Assembly: GCA_964464595.1 (NCBI GenBank)
Contig: CAYXGW010000029.1
Location: 1-51,009, forward strand
Origin: an uncultured Deferribacteres bacterium
Lineage (GTDB): Bacteria; Zhuqueibacterota; JdFR-76; DREG01
Direction of reading: 5' to 3'
DNA length: 51,009 nt
In this document: piece by piece, positions 33,321-41,143 of the stretch
Layout: every line of letters starts with the position of its first letter
How positions within the stretch are numbered: the first letter of the stretch is position 1
Notes under the pieces: model-generated
The model's database searches: none
The model's input: only the letters and a program-made list of their open reading frames with translations
What the model was told of the DNA's origin: nothing
Position numbers and translations under genes: made by a program

Positions 33321-33599
33321 GTGTCGATATATTGTAAAAAATCAATTTATACATTGCCTACCTATAACGATATATTAAGAAATTATGTTGGAGCCGTAGG
33401 GAAACTAACCCGGTTTAAAGGCGAGTTCCATCGCTTCAGAGTTGCATTCAAGATTGCAGATCCGTCAGTAGTTAAAGATATGCGTAGCCAGGGAGCCGAG
33501 TTGTATACTCTTGTCGAAGTCGGCGACGATTATATTGCTTTTCAAACCTCTAATACTAAAGTGTACCTTCCAACGTCGACCGTAGTTTTAGAAGACTAA
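33321..33599 (+). CDS. Hypothetical small protein (up to 92 aa; alternative ATG at 33386)
   Basis: Open frame only. No recognisable motif and no strong RBS. Lies between the tRNA and the BMC locus. Confidence 0.3.
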   Translation: MSIYCKKSIYTLPTYNDILRNYVGAVGKLTRFKGEFHRFRVAFKIADPSVVKDMRSQGAELYTLVEVGDDYIAFQTSNTKVYLPTSTVVLED

Positions 33600-33630: not shown

Positions 33631-33718
33631 TTTGTCAATTAAAACTTGACAAAGTAATATTTTTTTAATACGTTTTGGACAAATGTTCAACATAAGTGAA
33701 CATATGTTCAAATGAACA
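33631..33718 (+). promoter_or_regulatory. Candidate operator region of the DeoR/SorC regulator: two palindromic elements upstream of and overlapping its start codon
   Basis: TTTGTCAA-n7-TTGACAAA at 33631-33653. Alternating TGTTCA/TGAACA half-sites at 33684-33718, including the perfect palindrome TGAACAtaTGTTCA. Confidence 0.45.
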
Positions 33719-34677
33719 AAAATATAAATCAAACACACATGATAGTAGAAGCAGCTCAATTATATTACGAGCATCAATTTAGTCAACAATTGATATCAAA
33801 GAAGTTGGGTATCTCCCGCCCCGGGGTATCTCGACTTCTAAAGCAAGCTCGAGATAAAGGTATTGTTAAGATTGAAGTTATCGATCCAACAAAAAAAGGG
33901 ACTCGATTAGAAGCAAAATTAAAAGAAAAATTTGGATTAAAAAAAGTTATAGTTGTCCCAATCGATACAGATTCTTCCCAAAGTATTAAGCAGATGCTGG
34001 GTAATGCAGCAGTTAAAATTCTGGAAGTATTGGTTGAAGATAACATGATTTTGGGGGTGTCTTGGGGAACTACTATGCAAGAAGTTGCCCGGCAAGTAAA
34101 TGTGAAAATGTTTAAAGATTTAATTGTAGTTCAACTAAACGGTGGGGTTTCACGTGCCGAATATGATACTCATGCTAGTGAAATTGCCTTGAAGATTGGT
34201 GAAAAATTCCATGCAATTCCATTTTTGCTTCCCTTGCCAGCGATTGTTGATAGCCCGGAAGTTAAAAAGGCCATTGTATCAGACAAAAATATCGCTCGAA
34301 CTTTAGATTTAGCTAAACAAGCAAAAGTAGCAATATTTACAATTGGCTCATTTGGGTTAGAGTCAGTTTTGGTAAAGGCTGACTATTTCGAACAAGATGA
34401 GATAGATGCCTTATTGAAACAAAAGGCAATTGCGGATGTTTGCTCAAGAATTATAGACTCTGAAGGTAATTTATGTTCAAGTGAGCTTAACTCTCGTACA
34501 ATAGGCATTGAAATCGAGGAATTACAAAAAAAACCTTATTCAATCGCGGTTGCAGGTGGCAAAGAAAAATTAAATGCGATTCAAGCTGGTTTAAAAGGAA
34601 AAATTTTCAATATTCTAATAACAGATGAATGGGTTGCCAAAGAGCTTTTGGAAATTGATACCGACGAAAGATACTAA
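33712..34677 (+). CDS. SorC/DeoR-family sugar-phosphate-responsive transcriptional regulator
   Basis: N-terminal HTH 'LISKKLGISRPGVSRLLKQARDKGIVKI' and a C-terminal sugar-binding (SorC-like) domain. First gene of the BMC locus. Confidence 0.85.
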   Translation: MNKNINQTHMIVEAAQLYYEHQFSQQLISKKLGISRPGVSRLLKQARDKGIVKIEVIDPTKKGTRLEAKLKEKFGLKKVIVVPIDTDSSQSIKQMLGNAAVKILEVLVEDNMILGVSWGTTMQEVARQVNVKMFKDLIVVQLNGGVSRAEYDTHASEIALKIGEKFHAIPFLLPLPAIVDSPEVKKAIVSDKNIARTLDLAKQAKVAIFTIGSFGLESVLVKADYFEQDEIDALLKQKAIADVCSRIIDSEGNLCSSELNSRTIGIEIEELQKKPYSIAVAGGKEKLNAIQAGLKGKIFNILITDEWVAKELLEIDTDERY

Positions 34678-34686
34678 AAAAATAAA

Positions 34687-36093
34687 ATGACCGCAAAGAA
34701 AAATATTAACATTGCAATTGGTTCTGATCATGGTGGTTTTGATCTCAAAGAAAATTTAAAAATATTTTTATCTGAGAAAGGCTATCAATTTTCTGATTGT
34801 GGGACGGATAGTAAAGAATCAGTAGATTATCCAAAATTTGCCTATGCGGTTGCTAATAAAATTGCAAATGATGAAGTACATTTCGGCATTATGATAGATG
34901 GCGCTGGTATAGGCTCTGCTATAGCAGCAAATAAGGTTAAAGGAGTTCGTGCAGCATCTTGCTACAATGTTCAAACTGCAAAAAATGCGCGAGAACACAA
35001 TAATGCAAATATGCTCACTTTGGGAGGTGGTTTAATAGAACCAGGGTTGGCTAGGCAAATCGTTGAAATATTTTTAACTACAGATTGTACTATCGATAGA
35101 CATTTGCGCCGAGTGCAAATGATCAATGAATTAGATAATACAATGCCACCAAACAAGTTATTAAAAGATAATAGTCTAACAAACAAGGAGAAAACCTTGA
35201 TAAATATTTCTAGTGCAGATCTTGCTAGAATTGCTGAAAGAGTGGGTGAATTAATCGTAGGTTCCAGTGAGAGTACACAAGGCGCGAATTGTGGAACGGA
35301 TATGGTGTGCGCATGCGGTATGTGTGTAGAGCGAAAGCCTGAAACCATTCGTAAATTCCTCAATTCCGGAGTTGAAAGAATCGGTTATCATGATGGAACT
35401 GGCTGTGAATGTGTACCTCAAGACATCGCGCATTGTATCGATCACACCTTGCTGAAACCTGATGCCATGGAAAAAGATGTCATACAGCTTTGTAATGAAG
35501 CGAGAGAATACAATTTTGCTACTGTGTGCATTAGTCCAAGTTATGTTAGGTTAGCGGCAAAACATCTTGCAGGAACCCGGGTTAAAGTCTGTACCGTTGT
35601 GGGTTTCCCATCGGGTGCACATTTACCAGAAATTAAAGCAATGGAAACGAGACAAGCAATCCGCGACGGCGCTAGTGAGATTGATATGGTCATCAATATT
35701 GGCGCTTTAAAAAGTGGAAATGATGACCTAGTCTACCGGGATATTCGCATGGTTTGTGAAGCATGCGAAGATGGAGGTGTAATCAGTAAAGTTATTATAG
35801 AGGCGGCTCTGTTATCAGATGATGAAAAGCTTCGAGCTTGCAATTTGGCAAAGATAGCTCGTGCAAATTTTGTTAAGACCTCTACCGGTTTTGGACCTCA
35901 TGGGGCTACAGCTGAAGATGTTTCTCTTATGAGCAGGGTAGTGCAGCAGTCAGGAATTGAAGTAAAAGCTGCAGGAGGTATTCGCGATTTAGAATCAGCA
36001 AAAGAAATGATTGCAGCGGGTGCAACTAGAATTGGGGCAAGTGCAGGCATCAAAATCTTGCAAGAAGCTAAATCAATTACAGTATCAAATTGA
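34687..36093 (+). CDS. Bifunctional fusion: RpiB/LacAB-family sugar-phosphate isomerase (aa 1-150), Cys-rich linker with an amphipathic helix (aa 151-245), then deoxyribose-phosphate aldolase DeoC/DERA (aa 246-468)
   Basis: RpiB: 'NIAIGSDHGGFDL...DYPKFAYAVA...GIMIDGAGIGSAIAANK'. Linker: 'ADLARIAERVGELIV' and 'CGTDMVCACGMCVERK...GTGCEC'. DERA: 'HCIDHTLLKPDA...ATVCISP...VGFPSG...FVKTSTGF' (Schiff-base Lys). Confidence 0.85.
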   Translation: MTAKKNINIAIGSDHGGFDLKENLKIFLSEKGYQFSDCGTDSKESVDYPKFAYAVANKIANDEVHFGIMIDGAGIGSAIAANKVKGVRAASCYNVQTAKNAREHNNANMLTLGGGLIEPGLARQIVEIFLTTDCTIDRHLRRVQMINELDNTMPPNKLLKDNSLTNKEKTLINISSADLARIAERVGELIVGSSESTQGANCGTDMVCACGMCVERKPETIRKFLNSGVERIGYHDGTGCECVPQDIAHCIDHTLLKPDAMEKDVIQLCNEAREYNFATVCISPSYVRLAAKHLAGTRVKVCTVVGFPSGAHLPEIKAMETRQAIRDGASEIDMVINIGALKSGNDDLVYRDIRMVCEACEDGGVISKVIIEAALLSDDEKLRACNLAKIARANFVKTSTGFGPHGATAEDVSLMSRVVQQSGIEVKAAGGIRDLESAKEMIAAGATRIGASAGIKILQEAKSITVSN

Positions 36094-36168
36094 AACGGAA
36101 TAAACAAAAACTGGTAAGGTTTTTACGAATGAAATTCAGTAACAATAATAAAATGAGGAGACAATCAA

Positions 36169-36789
36169 GTGGTTGATCTAAGAGCTTACGTATTTTTAGA
36201 TAAACTGCAGCCACAATATGCTGCATTTTTAGGAACAATAGCTCAGGGATTTTTACCGATTGCGGGTATGGCATCTTTATATATCGAAATATCTCCTGGC
36301 ATCGAAATTAACCGGATCACCGACATCGCTCTAAAATCTACCAATGTAACTCCGGGTATGCAGATTGTAGAAAGATTGTATGGCATGTTGGAAATCCACT
36401 CGGAATCCCAAGCAGATGTTCGTCAAGCGGGAAGGGCAATTCTGGATGCGCTTGAATTGAATGAAGAGGATCGGTGGAAACCGAAGATATTTTCCAAACA
36501 GGTCATTCGACGAATAGATGATCACCAGACCCAATTAATCAATCGGATGCGGCATGGTAACATGATAGTTCCCGGTGAAACACTTTTCGTTATGGAGGTT
36601 CAACCGGCGGCTTACGCAGCCCTGGCAGCAAACGAAGCAGAAAAAGCTTCGGAAATTAATATCTTAGAAGTCCGGTCGTTCGGTAGTTTTGGAAGAATTT
36701 ATTTGGGCGGAGAAGAACGGGATATAGATGTTGGTTGGCGCGCTGCCGTAAGGGCAATTGAAGAAGTTACAGGTAAAGAAAAAGAATAA
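36169..36789 (+). CDS. BMC shell protein, tandem/permuted BMC-domain type (BMC-T, EutL/PduB-like)
   Basis: 206 aa. '[25 protein letters not shown]' is a permuted-BMC N-terminus and a second BMC-like repeat lies in the C-terminal half. The gene sits among shell genes. Confidence 0.6.
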
Positions 36790-36844
36790 TGATTGAAATT
36801 TAGAATTCTCGTATTTACACCAAAATTATCTGGAGGTAATTAAG

Positions 36845-37156
36845 ATGGCTGAAGCATTAGGAATGATAGAAACACGTAGTTACCCGGCAATGGTAGAAGC
36901 AGCAGATGCAATGGTAAAGGCTGCAAAAGTTGAATTAGTGGCATTTCAAAATACAGGTGGGGGCTATGTTACCGCAGTTGTGCGTGGCGATGTAGCGGCT
37001 GTGAAAGCAGCTTGCGACGCCGGCAGGGCAGGCTCTGCGCGAGTGGGTGAAATTGTAGCAGTTCATGTCATTGCACGTCCTCATAACAATGTGGATGAGG
37101 TTTTACCATTGGGCCGACAAGAAGAAAGCAAGTCTCCGTCCAAGACTAAAAAATAA
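36845..37156 (+). CDS. BMC-H hexameric shell protein (PduA/EutM/CcmK-like)
   Basis: '[58 protein letters not shown]' is the canonical Pfam BMC-domain consensus. Confidence 0.95.
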
Positions 37157-37168
37157 TAGGGAGGCACA

Positions 37169-37468
37169 ATGGTTCTCGCTAAAGTTGTGGGTACTGTAGT
37201 ATCCACGCGTAAAGAGGAAAGTATGGAAGGACTTAAATTCCTTATCTTACAGCAAGTTGATTTGGATGGTAATAATAGCGGAGGCATTGTTGTCGCCGCC
37301 GATGCGGTTGATGCGGGAGTTGGCGAATTGGTCCTTTATGCCAGCGGCAGTTCAGCTCGTCAAACCATAAAAACAGATAAACGCCCATGTGATGCGGTTG
37401 TTATGGCTATTGTGGATAATTGGGAAGTTGGTGGTAATATTAAATATAAAAAAGGCATTGATGATTAG
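37169..37468 (+). CDS. BMC-P pentameric vertex protein (EutN/CcmL/PduN family), paralog 1
   Basis: '[31 protein letters not shown]...[26 protein letters not shown]'. Confidence 0.9.
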
Positions 37469-37543
37469 TGTATTTTAGTATCCAGTTTTTAATGAAAATA
37501 GCGGTTAATGACAATGAACGAAAAATGTTTATGAAGGTGTAGT

Positions 37544-38998
37544 ATGTCACAGCTAACCCAAGAACAAGTAGATTTGATTGCTTCGCAAGTAGCAACCCTG
37601 ATAAAAGGCAAGCCCAATCAAACCACTTTGTCTCAAGCAACTTCTCACCAGACCTCAAATCCTCAGACCGCGAGTATGGGTGTATTTCCTGATATTGATT
37701 CAGCAGTGGCTGCAGCGAATCATGCTCATCTGCAATTGATGTCAATGACTCTACAAAAACGCAATGATATTATAGCGAGCATCCGAAAAAAAATGTTGGA
37801 GCACACTGAGGAATTGGCCAAACAAGCGCATGCAGAAACGGGGCTCGGAAGAGTTGAAGATAAAATTGCAAAAAATCGCTTAGTGACTGAAAAAACACCA
37901 GGTACAGAAGCCCTGGAACCAGTAGCTTATTCCGGAGATCGAGGATTAACTTTAATGGAGTTGGCTCCTTATGGTGTTATTGGAGTCATTACACCAACTA
38001 CTAATCCGACTTCAACGATTATCTGTAATACCATTGGCATGGTAGCGGCTGGCAACGCGGTTGTGTTTAATGTCCATCCTGGAGCAAAACAGGTAAGTGT
38101 TTACAACGTTGAGCTCTTAAATGAAGCTATAACAGAAGTCGGCGGACCTGCAAATTTGGTCACCACAATAGCTGATCCAACCATTGCAAGCGCTCAAGAG
38201 CTAATGACTCATAGTGGAGTTCGGCTATTGGTTGTTACCGGGGGCGCTGGTGTTGTCAAAGCAGCAATGACCAGTGGAAAACGGGCGATCTGTGCCGGGC
38301 CTGGAAATCCTCCCGTTGTAGTAGATGAAACTGCCGACATTGAAAAAGCTGCGAAGTCGATCATTGTTGGTGGGTCCATGGACAATAATATTATTTGTGT
38401 GGATGAAAAGGAAGTCTTCGTTGTTGAATCCGTAGCCGATCAATTAATTGCAGCCCTTGCGCAAGTAGATGCAATCATTTTAACTCCGGAGCAAGTTCAA
38501 CAAATAGAAAAAGTTATTTTTACAGAAAACCGTGGACCGGGCAAACCGGGAGTAATGTGTAAGGACTATATTGGGAAAAATATCAACATCATTCTTGCTA
38601 AAATTGGTTTGCAGGTAGAGAATAAAATTCGATTAGCCATAGCTCCTGTCCCTCAAGACCATCCTTTGGTGTGGAGTGAACAGATGATGCCAATTATGCC
38701 GGTAGTACGCATGCCAAATGTGGATGCGGCAATCGATATTGCAAAAGAAGCTGAGCATGACTTTCGCCATACTGCGGTCATGCATTCGCGGAATTTAGAT
38801 AACCTGAGCCGGATGGCGAAATTAATGAATTGTAGCATTTTTGTAAAAAATGGACCTTCCGTAGCGGGGCTTGGTTATGGTGGTGAAGGGTTTTGCTCAT
38901 TTTCCATAGCGAGTCCGACGGGAGAAGGCTTAACGAACCCAAGAAGTTTTTCAAGAGAAAGACGTTGTGTTTTGGTCGATCATTTTAGAATAGTATGA
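37544..38998 (+). CDS. CoA-acylating aldehyde dehydrogenase (PduP/EutE-like) with an N-terminal encapsulation-peptide-like amphipathic helix
   Basis: ALDH fold with catalytic Cys in 'ICVDEKE' and 'GPGNPPVVVDETAD'. The N-terminal 'LTQEQVDLIASQVATLIKG' amphipathic helix is followed by a polar linker. Confidence 0.85.
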   Translation: MSQLTQEQVDLIASQVATLIKGKPNQTTLSQATSHQTSNPQTASMGVFPDIDSAVAAANHAHLQLMSMTLQKRNDIIASIRKKMLEHTEELAKQAHAETGLGRVEDKIAKNRLVTEKTPGTEALEPVAYSGDRGLTLMELAPYGVIGVITPTTNPTSTIICNTIGMVAAGNAVVFNVHPGAKQVSVYNVELLNEAITEVGGPANLVTTIADPTIASAQELMTHSGVRLLVVTGGAGVVKAAMTSGKRAICAGPGNPPVVVDETADIEKAAKSIIVGGSMDNNIICVDEKEVFVVESVADQLIAALAQVDAIILTPEQVQQIEKVIFTENRGPGKPGVMCKDYIGKNINIILAKIGLQVENKIRLAIAPVPQDHPLVWSEQMMPIMPVVRMPNVDAAIDIAKEAEHDFRHTAVMHSRNLDNLSRMAKLMNCSIFVKNGPSVAGLGYGGEGFCSFSIASPTGEGLTNPRSFSRERRCVLVDHFRIV

Positions 38999-39002
38999 TA
39001 AT

Positions 39003-39614
39003 ATGATGAATAGATACCCGGCACTTGCCTTAATCGAATATTCTAGCATTGCAACCGGAATTTATTGCGGTGATGCAATGGTAAAACGTGCACCCATTAC
39101 AGTCCTCAAATCAGGAACAGTCCATCAAGGGAAATTTCTTGTGCTCATTGGCGGAAGTGTAGCTGCTGTTGAAGAATCCTACGAAGAAGGTCTTGCAATG
39201 GGTGGAGATTCTGTAATAGACAAAGTATTTCTACCATTTGTTCATACCCAGGTTCATGATGCAATTTTGGGAAAACGGCAGCCTTGTTCAAATGATGCTG
39301 TTGGAGTGATAGAAACAAACACCGTTGCTGCTACGATTCAATCGGCGGATGCTGGAGTAAAAGGCGCAGATGTAACTATTGTAGAAATCAGGTTGGCAGA
39401 TGACATTGGTGGAAAAGCAATAGCTGTTTTCAATGGAAAATTGGAAGAAGTAGAAGCCGCTGTCATGATTGCGAAAGACCAGGTCACAGAACAAGAACAT
39501 TGGCTTGGAGATGTAATAATTCCGAGAATACATGCTGAAATGGCTCATCAAATCGAACAGTCTACCAGTTTTGCTAATGTAGATCTCAATCAAGTTGAAG
39601 GGTTTGAGGTCTAA
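39003..39614 (+). CDS. BMC-T shell protein (two tandem BMC domains, PduT-like)
   Basis: Domain 1 'ALIEYSSIATGIYCGDAMVKRAPITVL...', domain 2 'VGVIETNTVAATIQSADAGVKGADVTIVEI...'. 203 aa. Confidence 0.8.
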   Translation: MMNRYPALALIEYSSIATGIYCGDAMVKRAPITVLKSGTVHQGKFLVLIGGSVAAVEESYEEGLAMGGDSVIDKVFLPFVHTQVHDAILGKRQPCSNDAVGVIETNTVAATIQSADAGVKGADVTIVEIRLADDIGGKAIAVFNGKLEEVEAAVMIAKDQVTEQEHWLGDVIIPRIHAEMAHQIEQSTSFANVDLNQVEGFEV

Positions 39615-39896
39615 ATGCTGCTTGGTAAAGTCATAGGAACATTAACGCCTTGCGTAGTTTATGAAGGACTGGAAGGTGTCCCATTGCTTTTAATTCAACC
39701 TCTCGATAAAAATAAAAACAAAACCGGCACACCACTTGTTGCTGCAGATTCAACCAGAATGGCAGGTCCTGATGAACTTATCTATTACGAAGGTGGAAGG
39801 GAAGCAGCGATGGCGTTGGAACCATGGTTTGTGCCTATAAACCATACAATTATCGGGATCGTTGATGGCGTTCATTTACTTGATTTGGAGGACTAA
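39615..39896 (+). CDS. BMC-P vertex protein, paralog 2
   Basis: 'MLLGKVIGTLTPCVVYEGLEGVPLLLIQPLD...PLVAADSTRMAGPDELIYYEGG'. The start abuts the upstream stop. Confidence 0.85.
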   Translation: MLLGKVIGTLTPCVVYEGLEGVPLLLIQPLDKNKNKTGTPLVAADSTRMAGPDELIYYEGGREAAMALEPWFVPINHTIIGIVDGVHLLDLED

Positions 39897-40190
39897 ATGA
39901 TTTTGGGCCGCATCAGCGGAGCTATTCATTCGACAATAAATCATGATTTTTATGACAACAAAAGACTTCTAATTGTTGACCTGCTAAACATTGACGGGAA
40001 GCCAACTGGCAAGTATTTAATCGCAGTTGATTCAGTAGATGCCGGCGTGGGTGAAACGGTGCTAGTGATAGACGAAGGCAATTCGGCCAGGCAGATCCTG
40101 GATGATGCACTGGCACCGATAAGATCTATTATCGTCGGCATTGTTGATGAAGTGCATTTACCAGGCATAATTAATTCTTTTAATTTGTAG
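39897..40190 (+). CDS. BMC-P vertex protein, paralog 3
   Basis: 'MILGRISGAIHSTINHDFYDNKRLLIVDL...YLIAVDSVDAGVGETVLVIDEGNSARQ'. The start abuts the upstream stop. Confidence 0.85.
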   Translation: MILGRISGAIHSTINHDFYDNKRLLIVDLLNIDGKPTGKYLIAVDSVDAGVGETVLVIDEGNSARQILDDALAPIRSIIVGIVDEVHLPGIINSFNL

Positions 40191-40495: not shown

Positions 40496-41143
40496 ATGTT
40501 TACAGATTGGGAAGCAAGGCGACAGATCGTCAGTTTTGGTAAAAAGACATATGAAAAGGGTTTGGTAGCCGCGACAGATGGTAATATTTCGGTCCGAATG
40601 ATGTCTGACCGATTCATGATAACACCCAGTGGAGTTCCTCTTTCGGATCTTGATTTAAATGATCTTGTCTATGTTAATTTAGACGGACAGGTTTTGCAGG
40701 GGCGAAAAAAGCCATCCTCCGAATTACCGATGCATCTGGAAATTTACCGGCAACGTCCCGAAATGAATGCAGTCATTCACGCCCATCCGCCCACAACTGT
40801 TGCATTTACAATAGCCGGGGAGACTTTTATTCAGCCGGTATTACCGGAACTTGTCGTTCTATTCGGTGAAATTCCCATCGCCACCTATGCTACTCCCGCC
40901 ACAGAAGAAAGCGCTAACTCCATTCGTGATTTAATTCCAAATAATGATGTAATTGTTTTAGATCACCATGGTGCCGTAACTGTAGGTAAGTCCCTGGATG
41001 ACGCCTTTGCAAAAATGGAAAAATTAGAGCATTCTTCAATCACGTTATTAGCAGCAAAACAAATTGGCCGCATCAATCCTTTAGAGCCTTCCGACGTCCG
41101 CAAACTTGAAAAGATGCGTAAAGAGAAGGGGTATAGCAATTAA
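40496..41143 (+). CDS. Class II aldolase/adducin-family protein (FucA/AraD-like)
   Basis: 'DGNISVRM...ITPSG...ELPMHLEIYRQRPEMNAVIHAHPP', metal-binding His cluster. Confidence 0.85.
   Translation: MFTDWEARRQIVSFGKKTYEKGLVAATDGNISVRMMSDRFMITPSGVPLSDLDLNDLVYVNLDGQVLQGRKKPSSELPMHLEIYRQRPEMNAVIHAHPPTTVAFTIAGETFIQPVLPELVVLFGEIPIATYATPATEESANSIRDLIPNNDVIVLDHHGAVTVGKSLDDAFAKMEKLEHSSITLLAAKQIGRINPLEPSDVRKLEKMRKEKGYSN

What the first reader, a model, noticed from the sequence alone, without database searches (positions are those of the whole stretch)
34687..36093. RpiB-linker-DERA fusion with an internal encapsulation-peptide-like helix and a six-cysteine cluster
A single 468-aa ORF joins an RpiB/LacAB isomerase domain to a DeoC aldolase. 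Between them lies a 95-aa linker. It contains an amphipathic helix 'ADLARIAERVGELIV' (nt ~35212-35256), which is shaped like a BMC encapsulation peptide. It also contains the cysteine pattern C-x5-C-x-C-x2-C-x26-C-x-C (nt ~35290-35412), which suggests Zn or Fe-S binding. An encapsulation peptide placed internally between two catalytic domains would be an unusual targeting architecture. The Cys cluster could be structural or redox-sensing.
Basis: seen in the sequence. Interest (0 to 1): 0.75.

Follow-up and report, generated by a model that had tools for sequence, protein, structure and literature searches.

The report
Known microcompartment isomerase–aldolase fusion enzyme
This gene encodes an already described fusion of a sugar-phosphate isomerase-like domain and a deoxyribose-phosphate aldolase that is probably packaged into a bacterial protein organelle; the one feature I did not find described is a small four-cysteine, probably metal-binding motif beside the packaging helix.

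Summary
Window 34687-36093 (+) is one 468-aa ORF with an RpiB/LacAB domain (aa 9-151) and a deoC-type DERA barrel (aa ~247-459). The amphipathic helix and the stated cysteine spacing are both present.

The architecture is not new. It sits in a sugar-phosphate-utilisation (SPU) microcompartment locus. The fusion was reported for Marinimicrobia in 2014 and for 20 SPU3 loci in 2024. The 2024 paper already calls the "linker" the DERA's own N-terminal extension and proposes its helix as an internal encapsulation peptide.

What I add:
- **Linker anatomy.** It is a flexible tether, an encapsulation-peptide-like helix, a Cys4 motif, and a segment that duplicates DERA alpha7-beta8.
- **Ancestral cysteines.** Only C202, C208, C210 and C213 belong to a widespread motif. 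At least four Cys occur in 56 of 80 species-level loci across many phyla, but the motif has been lost in several lineages.
- **Clade-specific cysteines.** C240 and C242, plus an unlisted C250, are confined to the Marinimicrobia-type clade.
- **One helix for two domains.** Fused RpiB domains of the query's clade lack the N-terminal extension that unfused SPU RpiBs carry.

Metal binding is plausible (structural Zn favoured, Fe-S not excluded) but untested. AlphaFold2 does not resolve the motif.

The parts
34687..36093 (+). Whole ORF, 468 aa: RpiB-like domain, tether, DERA N-terminal extension, DERA barrel.
   Evidence: At least 120 homologues share this architecture.
34711..35139 (+). RpiB/LacAB-fold domain (aa 9-151). 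The canonical catalytic Cys-Gly-Thr-Gly is replaced by Asp71-Gly-Ala73-Gly. There is no N-terminal encapsulation peptide.
   Evidence: Pfam PF02502 matches aa 9-146. Alignment to the solved T. maritima and C. thermocellum RpiB shows 'midgagig' against 'llCgTglg'. Dwyer 2024 reports Cys66 to Asp in all SPU RPIs. The RpiB domain starts 5-12 residues after the Met in six of the eight fused loci (the query's fusion clade plus L059), against a median 67-aa extension on unfused RpiBs.
35140..35211 (+). Flexible tether (aa 152-175). It is poorly conserved, contains indels and is predicted to be disordered.
   Evidence: Per-column conservation is 17-46% with gaps. pLDDT is below 50 for aa 153-174.
35212..35262 (+). 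Amphipathic helix (aa 176-192) resembling an encapsulation peptide. It is internal here but N-terminal in unfused SPU DERAs.
   Evidence: Highest hydrophobic moment in the protein, 0.64. AlphaFold2 helix 176-191, pLDDT about 94 with alignment A3. D178, I182 and A183 are 92-97% conserved. The same helix lies about 70 residues before IDHT in 80 loci. It resembles the N-terminus of the locus's own AldDH, 'EQVDLIASQVATLI'.
35290..35325 (+). Cys4 motif C202-x5-C208-x-C210-x2-C213. This is the local version of a four-Cys motif widespread in SPU DERA extensions and is a candidate metal site.
   Evidence: Distant fused and unfused relatives carry C-x(3-9)-C-x2-C-x2-C, C-x2-C-x3-C-x3-C, CC-x4-C-x4-C or C-x-C-x6-CC at the same place. 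At least four Cys occur in 56 of 80 loci. AlphaFold2 pLDDT is below 50.
35332..35400 (+). Helix-strand segment (aa 216-238, 'RKPETIRKFLNSGVERIGYHDGT') paralogous to the DERA's own alpha7-beta8 ('LESAKEMIAAGATRIGASAGI', aa 435-455).
   Evidence: hhalign of the extension profile against the DERA profile gives probability 92.3%, E 5.5e-7 and score 34.7. The maximum over 60 column shuffles is 16.1 and the reversed alignment scores 12.7. The same similarity appears against solved DERAs.
35404..35436 (+). Clade-specific cysteines C240, C242 and C250, on the segment that enters beta1 of the barrel.
   Evidence: Conservation among the 120 close fusion homologues is C240 50%, C242 96% and C250 100%. 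This segment has no Cys in 73 of 80 loci from other lineages.
35425..36090 (+). DERA (class I aldolase) TIM barrel. The catalytic residues D333, K368 and K397 are present.
   Evidence: TIGR00126 deoC equivalog matches aa 247-458 at 280.8 bits. Foldseek's best hit is Geobacillus DERA 8qps, 60% identity, E 1.1e-26. D333, K368 and K397 are invariant in alignment A1. Their equivalence to E. coli D102, K167 and K201 comes from the motifs EIDMV, KVIIE and FVKTSTG, which I recalled from my own knowledge of the E. coli sequence.
33712..34677 (+). SorC-type sugar-binding transcriptional regulator directly upstream.
   Evidence: PF04198 E 2e-74. The same position is occupied in L001.
36169..36789 (+). 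CcmP-like double-stacking tandem-BMC shell protein (BMC-T dp).
   Evidence: phmmer against the PDB: CcmP 5lsr, E 7.1e-84. It is conserved next to the DERA gene in most related loci.
36845..37468 (+). BMC-H (36845-37156) and BMC-P (37169-37468) shell proteins.
   Evidence: PF00936 E 2.4e-27 and PF03319 E 4.5e-29.
37544..38998 (+). Acylating aldehyde dehydrogenase with an N-terminal EP-like helix. It would take the acetaldehyde released by DERA.
   Evidence: PF00171 E 1.3e-34. N-terminus 'MSQLTQEQVDLIASQVATLIKGK' followed by a low-complexity linker.
39003..40190 (+). PduT-like BMC-T s (39003-39614) and two further BMC-P proteins (39615-39896 and 39897-40190).
   Evidence: PduT 3pac E 2e-34. Pfam BMC and EutN_CcmL hits.
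40496..41143 (+). Class II aldolase at the end of the locus.
   Evidence: PF00596 E 1.6e-51.

Best explanation
This is the cargo enzyme of a sugar-phosphate-utilisation (SPU) bacterial microcompartment, in its known fused RPI-DERA form.

The C-terminal DERA barrel is intact. [quoted passage not shown] The neighbouring acylating aldehyde dehydrogenase then oxidises the acetaldehyde inside the shell.

The N-terminal RpiB-fold domain lacks the canonical catalytic Cys and Thr. It is probably a partner or scaffold, or an isomerase for another substrate.

The 95-aa 'linker' has four parts:
1. A disordered tether (aa 152-175).
2. The DERA family's own amphipathic encapsulation helix (aa 176-192). Because of the fusion it is internal, and it serves both domains.
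3. A Cys4 motif (C202, C208, C210, C213). I infer that it binds a structural metal, most likely Zn, and stiffens the junction.
4. A helix-strand piece (aa 216-238) that arose as a partial duplicate of DERA alpha7-beta8 and packs on the barrel.

C240, C242 and C250 are additions of the Marinimicrobia-type clade. They may tie the Cys4 motif to the start of the barrel.

Shown here: the domain identities, the locus context, the helix properties, the conservation patterns and the internal duplication. Inferred: encapsulation by the helix, metal binding, and the role of the RpiB domain.
For: - Domains and catalytic residues.
- Locus holds BMC-H, three BMC-P, CcmP-like and PduT-like BMC-T, AldDH and a SorC regulator.
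- The same gene order occurs in L001-L004 and L014, and in many loci with unfused genes.
- Fusion already published: PMC4207490 and PMC11585597. The latter also reports that RPI and DERA form a complex and that the extension makes full-length DERA insoluble.
- Helix: top hydrophobic moment, pLDDT about 94, conserved about 70 residues before IDHT in 80 loci, absent from all solved DERAs.
- Inter-domain EPs reported, with EP deletion abolishing recruitment, in archaeal SPU enzymes.
- Fused RpiB lacks the N-terminal extension that unfused RpiBs carry.
- Cys4 motif: four Cys is the modal count (46 of 80 loci) and at least four occur in 56 of 80, with several spacing classes. It is strongly enriched over the barrel.
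- The scattered distribution of Cys-rich and Cys-poor forms resembles dispensable structural Zn sites. This comparison is from my own knowledge.
- Internal duplication.
Against: - No direct evidence for metal binding. No Pfam, NCBIfam or PDB match covers the extension.
- AlphaFold2 leaves aa 195-212 below pLDDT 50 in both models.
- Within the query's own clade the ancestral quartet is eroding. C202 is 63% and C213 67% conserved, and one subgroup keeps only C208, C242 and C250. The site cannot be essential in its ancestral form.
- Encapsulation by this helix has not been tested for any RPI-DERA fusion.
- The only SPU RPI that has been assayed showed weak and inconsistent ribose-5-phosphate isomerase activity. 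The role of that domain is open.
Confidence: 0.7

Rival explanations
1. The Cys motif binds an iron-sulfur cluster with a redox role. It could relay electrons out of the lumen to recycle NADH made by the aldehyde dehydrogenase, or it could sense redox state and gate cargo condensation.
For: - The commonest family variant, C-x(3-9)-C-x2-C-G-x-C-[VA]-x-[RK]-[RK]-P, resembles the CxxCGxC core of 4Fe-4S ferredoxins.
- JGI annotated two extension fragments as 'ferredoxin'.
- A PDB profile search gave thematically similar hits to 4Fe-4S proteins, but they are not significant (E 1.6-9).
- This locus has no alcohol dehydrogenase or phosphotransacylase among the genes scanned, so cofactor recycling is unexplained.
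- Compact Cys4 motifs can hold one 4Fe-4S cluster, as in endonuclease III (my own knowledge).
Against: - The query's spacing, C-x5-C-x-C-x2-C, departs from the CxxCxxC core.
- The motif has been lost or reduced to two or fewer Cys in 20 of 80 loci and in part of the query's own clade. That is unusual for an essential redox cofactor.
- The locus has no PduS or flavoprotein partner.
- Its PduT-like shell protein has His41-Gln42 where PduT has the cluster-ligand Cys-Pro, so no canonical electron conduit is visible.
Confidence: 0.15
2. The cysteines bind no metal. They are a lineage-variable Cys-rich loop, either without specific function or forming intermolecular disulfides that help cargo aggregate.
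For: - Cys number (0-6) and spacing vary between lineages.
- Three of the four ancestral Cys are lost in a subgroup that is still more than 60% identical to the query.
- AlphaFold2 gives low confidence there.
- Full-length SPU6 DERA is insoluble and becomes soluble when the extension is removed.
Against: - Exactly four Cys is by far the commonest state (46 of 80 loci). They always lie within about 10-17 residues at the same place, in phyla as distant as Planctomycetota, Chloroflexota, Acidobacteriota, Bacteroidota and Myxococcota.
- Some variants replace one Cys by His at the same spot, for example CxxCHGSCAAHS. That is typical of ligand sets.
- None of 77 DERA barrels reaches the same Cys density.
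Confidence: 0.12
3. The helix is not an encapsulation signal. It is a structural or oligomerisation element that docks the RpiB domain on DERA or holds cargo multimers together.
For: [quoted passage not shown]
- RPI and DERA form a complex.
- The adjoining segment is a copy of a barrel strand and helix. It could take part in strand exchange between subunits.
Against: - The SPU6 RPI-DERA complex forms without the extension (delta-N DERA), so the helix is not needed for that contact.
- The helix is flanked on both sides by poorly conserved, low-confidence spacers, as EPs are.
- Its sequence pattern matches the N-terminal helices of the locus's AldDH and of unfused SPU RpiBs.
- Extension-bearing DERAs lie next to RpiB and BMC shell genes in most loci sampled.
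Confidence: 0.1
4. The ORF is an assembly or frameshift artefact that joins two separate genes.
For: In most SPU loci rpiB and deoC are separate adjacent genes in the same order.
Against: - At least 120 independent homologues from NCBI, JGI, ENA and Logan have the same length and both domains.
- Fused versions occur in GTDB genomes of Neomarinimicrobiota, Planctomycetota, Calditrichia and others.
- There is no stop in frame.
- The fusion is published.
Confidence: 0.01

Closest known systems
SPU3-type RPI-DERA chimera (Dwyer et al. 2024, Commun Biol, PMC11585597; first noted for Marinimicrobia by Axen et al. 2014, PMC4207490)
   Same: - Same domain order: RpiB-fold, then the DERA N-terminal extension, then the DERA barrel.
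- Same kind of locus: AldDH, BMC-H, three BMC-P, CcmP-like BMC-T.
- RpiB lacks its own N-terminal EP.
- Catalytic Cys of RpiB replaced by Asp.
- The best database hits are named Candidatus Marinimicrobia.
   Different: Nothing in the architecture differs. The published text describes the extension as a helix plus two low-confidence strands. It does not mention the Cys4 motif, the clade-specific C240, C242 and C250, or the alpha7-beta8 duplication.
Unfused SPU DERA with N-terminal extension (for example SPU6 DERA of Chloroflexi bacterium GWB2_54_36, characterised by Dwyer et al. 2024)
   Same: - Same extension layout: EP-like helix, Cys-rich stretch, 'PExVRxxxxxGAxRIG' segment, then IDHTLLKP.
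- Active DERA catalytic triad.
   Different: - There the extension is N-terminal, and RpiB is a separate protein with its own EP-bearing extension (median 67 aa).
- Chloroflexota-type spacing is C-x2-C-x3-C-x3-C rather than C-x5-C-x-C-x2-C.
Flav+DERA fusion of Hodarchaeales SPU-type archaeal microcompartments (preprint PMC12747264)
   Same: Another enzyme domain is fused upstream of DERA, and the enzyme is among four reported to carry EPs at termini or as inter-domain linkers. EP-deletion variants were not recruited to shells.
   Different: The upstream domain is a flavoprotein, not RpiB, and the host is archaeal. I could not examine whether the Cys4 motif is present.
Canonical N- or C-terminal encapsulation peptides of metabolosome cargo (PduP, PduD and AldDH type)
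   Same: An amphipathic helix of about 15-18 residues set off from the enzyme by poorly conserved linkers. The pattern is similar to the AldDH N-terminus in this locus.
   Different: It is internal rather than terminal. It is followed by a conserved Cys4 motif and a barrel-derived segment rather than by a simple linker.
Housekeeping DERA (DeoC) and RpiB
   Same: - The DERA barrel is 60% identical to Geobacillus DERA.
- The RpiB domain matches T. maritima RpiB at E 3e-36.
   Different: - Solved DERAs lack the extension.
- Canonical RpiB has Cys-Gly-Thr-Gly where this protein has Asp-Gly-Ala-Gly.

Membership tests
Deoxyribose-phosphate aldolase (DeoC/DERA, class I aldolase) | Sequence match above the curated equivalog threshold. 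| tested here: met
   TIGR00126 scores 280.8 bits against a cut-off of 117.3. Pfam PF01791 E 2e-21.
Deoxyribose-phosphate aldolase (DeoC/DERA, class I aldolase) | Schiff-base Lys and its partners (E. coli D102, K167, K201). | tested here: met
   D333, K368 and K397 sit in the motifs EIDMV, KVIIE and FVKTSTG and are invariant in 40 homologues. The equivalence to E. coli numbering rests on motifs I recalled. Dwyer 2024 report the triad conserved in SPU DERA.
Deoxyribose-phosphate aldolase (DeoC/DERA, class I aldolase) | TIM-barrel fold superposable on solved DERAs. | tested here: met
   Foldseek: 8qps E 1.1e-26, TM(target) 0.85, rmsd 2.0 A, 60% identity.
Deoxyribose-phosphate aldolase (DeoC/DERA, class I aldolase) | Aldolase activity on 2-deoxyribose 5-phosphate. 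| not testable with these tools
   Activity has been shown only for the SPU6 homologue.
RpiB/LacAB sugar-phosphate isomerase | Full-length domain match. | tested here: met
   PF02502 covers profile positions 1-138 of 138, E 2.9e-52. TIGR01120 scores 148.1 bits against a cut-off of 138.65.
RpiB/LacAB sugar-phosphate isomerase | Catalytic base Cys (E. coli Cys66) and the neighbouring Thr68. | tested here: not met
   Asp71 and Ala73 align with the Cys and Thr of the T. maritima and C. thermocellum RpiB. The same substitution is reported for all SPU RPIs. The domain has the fold, but ribose-5-phosphate isomerase activity should not be assumed.
SPU (sugar phosphate utilisation) microcompartment locus | DERA (PF01791) and RpiB (PF02502) together with AldDH and BMC-H, BMC-T and BMC-P shell genes. 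| tested here: met
   The SPU criteria come from Sutter 2021 and Dwyer 2024.
SPU (sugar phosphate utilisation) microcompartment locus | Assignment to subtype SPU3 with the authors' HMM and colour scheme. | not tested
   Inferred only. The fusion is reported in SPU3, and CcmP-like BMC-T dp proteins are reported for SPU2 and SPU3, consistent.
BMC encapsulation peptide | Amphipathic helix of about 15-20 residues. | tested here: met
   Hydrophobic moment 0.64, the maximum for the protein. AlphaFold2 helix 176-191.
BMC encapsulation peptide | Separated from the catalytic domain by poorly conserved linkers, and absent from homologues not associated with a BMC. | tested here: met
   The flanks aa 152-175 and 192-201 are variable and contain indels. 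Solved DERAs lack the region. Extension-bearing DERAs lie beside RpiB and shell genes.
BMC encapsulation peptide | Necessary and sufficient for loading cargo into the shell. | not testable with these tools
   The only indirect precedent is that EP-deletion variants of archaeal SPU enzymes, Flav+DERA among them, were not recruited to shells.
Structural zinc site or Fe-S cluster site | Four conserved ligand residues (Cys or His) in a compact motif. | tested here: inconclusive
   The query has them: C202, C208, C210, C213. At least four Cys occur in 56 of 80 loci, but two or fewer in 20 of 80. Conservation is only 63-99% per position in the query's own clade.
Structural zinc site or Fe-S cluster site | Match to a curated metal-binding family or a solved metal site. 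| tested here: not met
   The extension has no Pfam or NCBIfam family. PDB hits to Fe-S proteins have E 1.6-9. The canonical ferredoxin CxxCxxCxxxCP spacing is absent in the query.
Structural zinc site or Fe-S cluster site | Metal content of the protein. | not testable with these tools
   This needs ICP-MS, UV-visible spectroscopy or EPR.

The most novel reading that the evidence does not exclude
The Cys4 motif next to the encapsulation helix is a real metal centre (Zn or an Fe-S cluster) and a working part of the SPU targeting module. Packaging or condensation of DERA cargo would then depend on metal or redox state. The adjoining alpha7-beta8 copy would allow strand exchange between DERA subunits and drive cargo self-association. 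That would be a metal-dependent encapsulation domain not described for any microcompartment. It would also explain why full-length SPU DERA is insoluble when made in E. coli.
Probability: 0.15. Interest if true: 0.6.

Novelty: already known. Interest (0 to 1): 0.3.

Why it matters

The useful residue is a finer anatomy of the DERA N-terminal extension. This is the element that current work treats as the encapsulation signal of one of the most widespread microcompartment types.
- A conserved Cys4 motif sits directly after the helix.
- The rest of the extension originated as a copy of the barrel's own alpha7-beta8.
- Some lineages have lost the motif, and the Marinimicrobia-type clade has gained extra cysteines.

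If the motif binds metal, expression without the right metal or under air could explain the insolubility seen for the full-length enzyme. Constructs that use this extension as a targeting tag would then need the motif intact.

Tried and rejected
- **AlphaFold2, two runs.** I used the full protein with 40 close homologues and the extension plus DERA with 150 diverse sequences. The helix became confident, but the Cys4 motif (aa 195-212) stayed below pLDDT 50. The tool returns no coordinates. I could therefore not test whether the cysteines converge, nor search folds with the motif alone.
- **Foldseek against the PDB.** It returned only DERA barrels.
- **Representative-library search with the 89-aa extension alone.** It gave only 14 hits. 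One, P0126, a 2179-aa repeat protein, is a chance match to 'IGYDDGDSEENVPADRIRA' and was discarded.
- **Profile search of the 5.8-billion-protein set.** It returned mostly short fragments and frameshifted calls. I used these only for motif counting, not for architecture.
- **Pfam, NCBIfam and PDB sequence searches of the extension.** They found no family.
- **Supplementary tables of Dwyer 2024.** They are not held, so I could not check whether the cysteines appear in their logos or tables.
- **Redox conduit through the shell.** The PduT-like protein has His-Gln instead of the cluster-binding Cys-Pro.
- **Compensation between lost knuckle Cys and gained C240.** I looked for this in the close clade and found no simple pattern.
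- **Frameshift or two-gene artefact.** Rejected.
- **Full neighbour-joining tree of DERA domains.** The script stopped on a missing locus. Only the nearest-neighbour lists for six of the fused DERAs were obtained.
Full report
**1. Observation**

Window 34687-36093 (+) is a single ATG-initiated ORF of 468 aa with no internal stop.
- Pfam places a complete LacAB_rpiB domain at aa 9-146 (E 2.9e-52) and a DeoC aldolase domain at aa 250-459 (E 2e-21).
- NCBIfam's deoC equivalog model scores 280.8 bits (cut-off 117.3). The rpiB equivalog scores 148.1 bits (cut-off 138.65).
- The cysteine spacing C202-x5-C208-x-C210-x2-C213-x26-C240-x-C242 is exact. A seventh cysteine, C250, directly precedes the IDHTLLKP motif that opens the barrel.

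**2. Context**

The gene lies in a microcompartment locus.

| Window coordinates | Product |
|---|---|
| 33712-34677 | SorC-type regulator |
| 34687-36093 | RpiB-DERA fusion |
| 36169-36789 | CcmP-like BMC-T dp (E 7e-84 to CcmP) |
| 36845-37156 | BMC-H |
| 37169-37468 | BMC-P |
| 37544-38998 | Aldehyde dehydrogenase with an N-terminal EP-like helix |
| 39003-39614 | PduT-like BMC-T s |
| 39615-40190 | Two further BMC-P |
| 40496-41143 | Class II aldolase |

DERA, RpiB, AldDH and shell genes together define the SPU type. The closest named homologues are from Candidatus Marinimicrobia.

**3. The fusion is real and already published**

- The 120 listed homologues, 63-95% identical, are all 453-484 aa and carry both domains.
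- Fused genes occur in species-representative genomes of Neomarinimicrobiota, Planctomycetota/Phycisphaerae, Calditrichia, Thermoanaerobaculia and Terriglobia.
- Axen et al. [quoted passage not shown]
- Dwyer et al. 2024 found the chimera in 20 SPU3 loci. [quoted passage not shown] - A 2025 preprint on archaeal SPU compartments reports EPs at termini or as inter-domain linkers in four core enzymes, a Flav+DERA fusion among them. EP-deletion variants were not recruited to shells.

An internal EP between two domains is therefore neither new nor unprecedented.

**4. Anatomy of the 'linker'**

Conservation among the 120 close homologues and two AlphaFold2 runs divide it into parts.
- **aa 152-175:** variable, with indels, pLDDT below 50. 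This is the true tether.
- **aa 176-192:** amphipathic helix. D178, I182 and A183 are 92-97% conserved, and pLDDT is about 94 with the 150-sequence alignment.
- **aa 193-201:** variable spacer.
- **aa 202-213:** cysteine motif, pLDDT below 50.
- **aa 218-226 and 232-234:** a helix and a strand.
- **aa 240-250:** the segment that enters beta1.

In 80 related loci an amphipathic helix of the pattern [DE]-x-L-[VI]-E-x-[IV]-T-x-E-V-L lies a median of 71 residues before IDHT. The locus's own AldDH starts with a similar helix.

Unfused SPU RpiBs carry N-terminal extensions, median 67 aa, with helices of the same type. In fused proteins of the Marinimicrobia, Planctomycetota, Calditrichia and Thermoanaerobaculia loci, the RpiB domain starts 5-12 residues after the Met. 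After the fusion, one helix serves both domains.

**5. The cysteines**

A search of 1.84 billion representative proteins with the extension alone found few but informative relatives. A profile search and a scan of GTDB genomes added many more.

Across Planctomycetota, Chloroflexota, Acidobacteriota, Bacteroidota, Ignavibacteria, Myxococcota, Actinomycetota and others, the stretch after the helix usually holds four cysteines within about 10-17 residues. The lineage-typical spacings are:
- C-x(3-9)-C-x2-C-x2-C
- C-x2-C-x3-C-x3-C
- C-x-C-x3-C-x3-C
- C-x-C-x6-CC
- CC-x4-C-x4-C

Cysteine counts per locus in that window:

| Cys count | 0 | 1 | 2 | 3 | 4 | 5 | 6 |
|---|---|---|---|---|---|---|---|
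| Loci (of 80) | 1 | 12 | 7 | 4 | 46 | 4 | 6 |

At least four Cys within 20 residues occur in 53 of 77 extensions and in none of 77 barrels. C202, C208, C210 and C213 of the query are this motif with one residue deleted.

The segment holding C240, C242 and C250 has no cysteine in 73 of 80 loci. Those three are an innovation of the Marinimicrobia-type clade.

Within that clade the best-conserved positions are C208 (99%), C242 (96%), C250 (100%) and C210 (85%). C202, C213 and C240 are 50-67% conserved, and one subgroup keeps only C208, C242 and C250.

**6. What the motif is**

A four-ligand set at a fixed place, with variable spacing and occasional Cys-to-His replacement, is what metal sites look like. 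The scattered distribution of Cys-rich and Cys-poor forms is typical of dispensable structural Zn sites. That comparison is my own knowledge, not a test.

The CxxCGxC core of the commonest variant also resembles ferredoxin motifs, and JGI named two fragments 'ferredoxin'.

Three points argue against a redox role here.
- The motif has been lost repeatedly.
- The locus has no PduS or flavoprotein.
- The PduT-like shell protein has His41-Gln42 where PduT has the cluster-binding Cys-Pro.

No curated family, solved structure or confident model covers the motif. I found no paper in the held library that mentions it.

I therefore favour a structural metal site, probably Zn, and keep Fe-S as a live rival.

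**7. An unexpected origin for the rest of the extension**

The PDB profile search aligned the 'PExVRxFxxxGAxRIGxxxG' part of the extension to the C-terminal 'MIxAGAxRIGASAG' of solved DERAs.

Profile-profile comparison of the extension (70 sequences) with the DERA barrel of the same proteins gave probability 92.3%, E 5.5e-7 and score 34.7. It matched the extension to alpha7-beta8 of the barrel. Sixty column shuffles reached at most 16.1, and the reversed alignment 12.7.

The extension thus seems to have begun as a partial duplication of the DERA C-terminus. [quoted passage not shown] It also suggests, as inference only, that it could pair with the barrel in cis or in trans.

**8. The catalytic domains**

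- **DERA.** The barrel is 60% identical to Geobacillus DERA. It keeps D333, K368 and K397.
- **RpiB.** The domain aligns end to end with solved RpiBs, but it has Asp71-Gly-Ala73-Gly where they have Cys-Gly-Thr-Gly. Dwyer et al. report this Cys-to-Asp change for all SPU RPIs. Their SPU6 protein showed weak and inconsistent ribose-5-phosphate isomerase activity.

**9. How many fusion events**

By DERA-domain distance, the fused proteins of Marinimicrobia, Planctomycetota and Calditrichia are each other's nearest neighbours. The Terriglobia fusion L035 is nearest to unfused DERAs, and its RpiB keeps a 59-aa N-terminal extension. This points to at least two fusion events and to locus transfer between phyla.

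**10. Verdict**

The architecture and the internal-EP idea are already in the literature.

The remaining interest lies in three points I did not find described:
- the Cys4 motif of the SPU DERA extension;
- its remodelling in the Marinimicrobia-type clade;
- the barrel-derived origin of the extension.

Interest is 0.3.

Noticed in passing
window 35332-35400 compared with 35989-36051; also L001-L080: The second half of the DERA N-terminal extension ('RKPETIRKFLNSGVERIGYHDGT') is paralogous to the barrel's own alpha7-beta8 ('LESAKEMIAAGATRIGASAGI'). hhalign gives probability 92%, E 5.5e-7 and score 34.7, against at most 16.1 in 60 column shuffles. The extension probably arose by partial duplication of the DERA 3' end.
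   Followed up: yes
window 39003-39614, residues His41-Gln42 (nt 39123-39128): The PduT-like BMC-T s shell protein (E 2e-34 to PduT 3pac) has 'TVHQGKF' where PduT has 'TICPGKF'. The cysteine that holds the 4Fe-4S cluster at the trimer pore is replaced by histidine.
   Followed up: partly
window 36169-36789: Pfam barely detects this shell gene (BMC domain E 9.7e-06). It is nevertheless a very close relative of the carboxysomal CcmP double-stacking trimer (E 7.1e-84). It sits directly after the DERA gene in most related loci.
   Followed up: partly
window 36001-39000 compared with the rest of the window: GC content is higher in the shell and AldDH part of the locus, 0.43 against about 0.35 for the rest of the window. 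This is compatible with locus transfer or with the Ala/Gly-rich composition of shell proteins.
   Followed up: no
window 37544-37620: The AldDH N-terminus, 'MSQLTQEQVDLIASQVATLIKGK', is followed by a Q/T/S-rich low-complexity linker. It is an EP-like helix with the same D-L-[IA]-x-x-V-x-x-L-I pattern as the internal helix of the fusion.
   Followed up: partly
L029, L033, L034, L043, L051, L053, L054, L072, L078-L080; fused L035 and L045 (RpiB N-terminal extensions): Many SPU RpiB proteins carry a second conserved N-terminal module after their EP-like helix, of the form 'ITEDDVRxLxxGxxLxIxxGAxLTPLAxDIxxExxIELV'. The query lacks it. I did not identify it.
   Followed up: no
L035 and L045 (Terriglobia) compared with L001-L004 and L014: The Terriglobia RpiB-DERA fusion appears to be an independent event. 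The DERA domain of L035 is nearest to unfused DERAs, and the RpiB of both L035 and L045 keeps a 59-89 aa N-terminal extension.
   Followed up: partly
L015, L018, L019, L037, L046, L052, L062 (Acidimicrobiia/Actinomycetota); L023, L032, L036, L068 (Melioribacter, Rhodothermaceae, Ignavibacteriales and an unclassified bacterium): These lineages have reduced the Cys motif of the DERA extension to one or two cysteines, yet they keep the helix and the alpha7-beta8-like segment. I did not examine whether the loss tracks an aerobic lifestyle.
   Followed up: no
L007, L008, L049 (Kofleriaceae, Haliangiales, delta proteobacterium); L009, L017, L021, L024, L026, L039, L056, L066 (Bacteroidota, Ignavibacteria, Kryptonia): Here extension-bearing DERAs with a full Cys4 motif occur with no RpiB or shell gene detected within 6 kb by single-sequence phmmer. 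Sutter 2021 mentions satellite DERAs with EP-like extensions in genomes that have HO-type compartments.
   Followed up: no
window 33321-33599: A 92-aa GTG-initiated ORF lies between the Ham1-family gene and the SorC regulator. It has no Pfam match.
   Followed up: no
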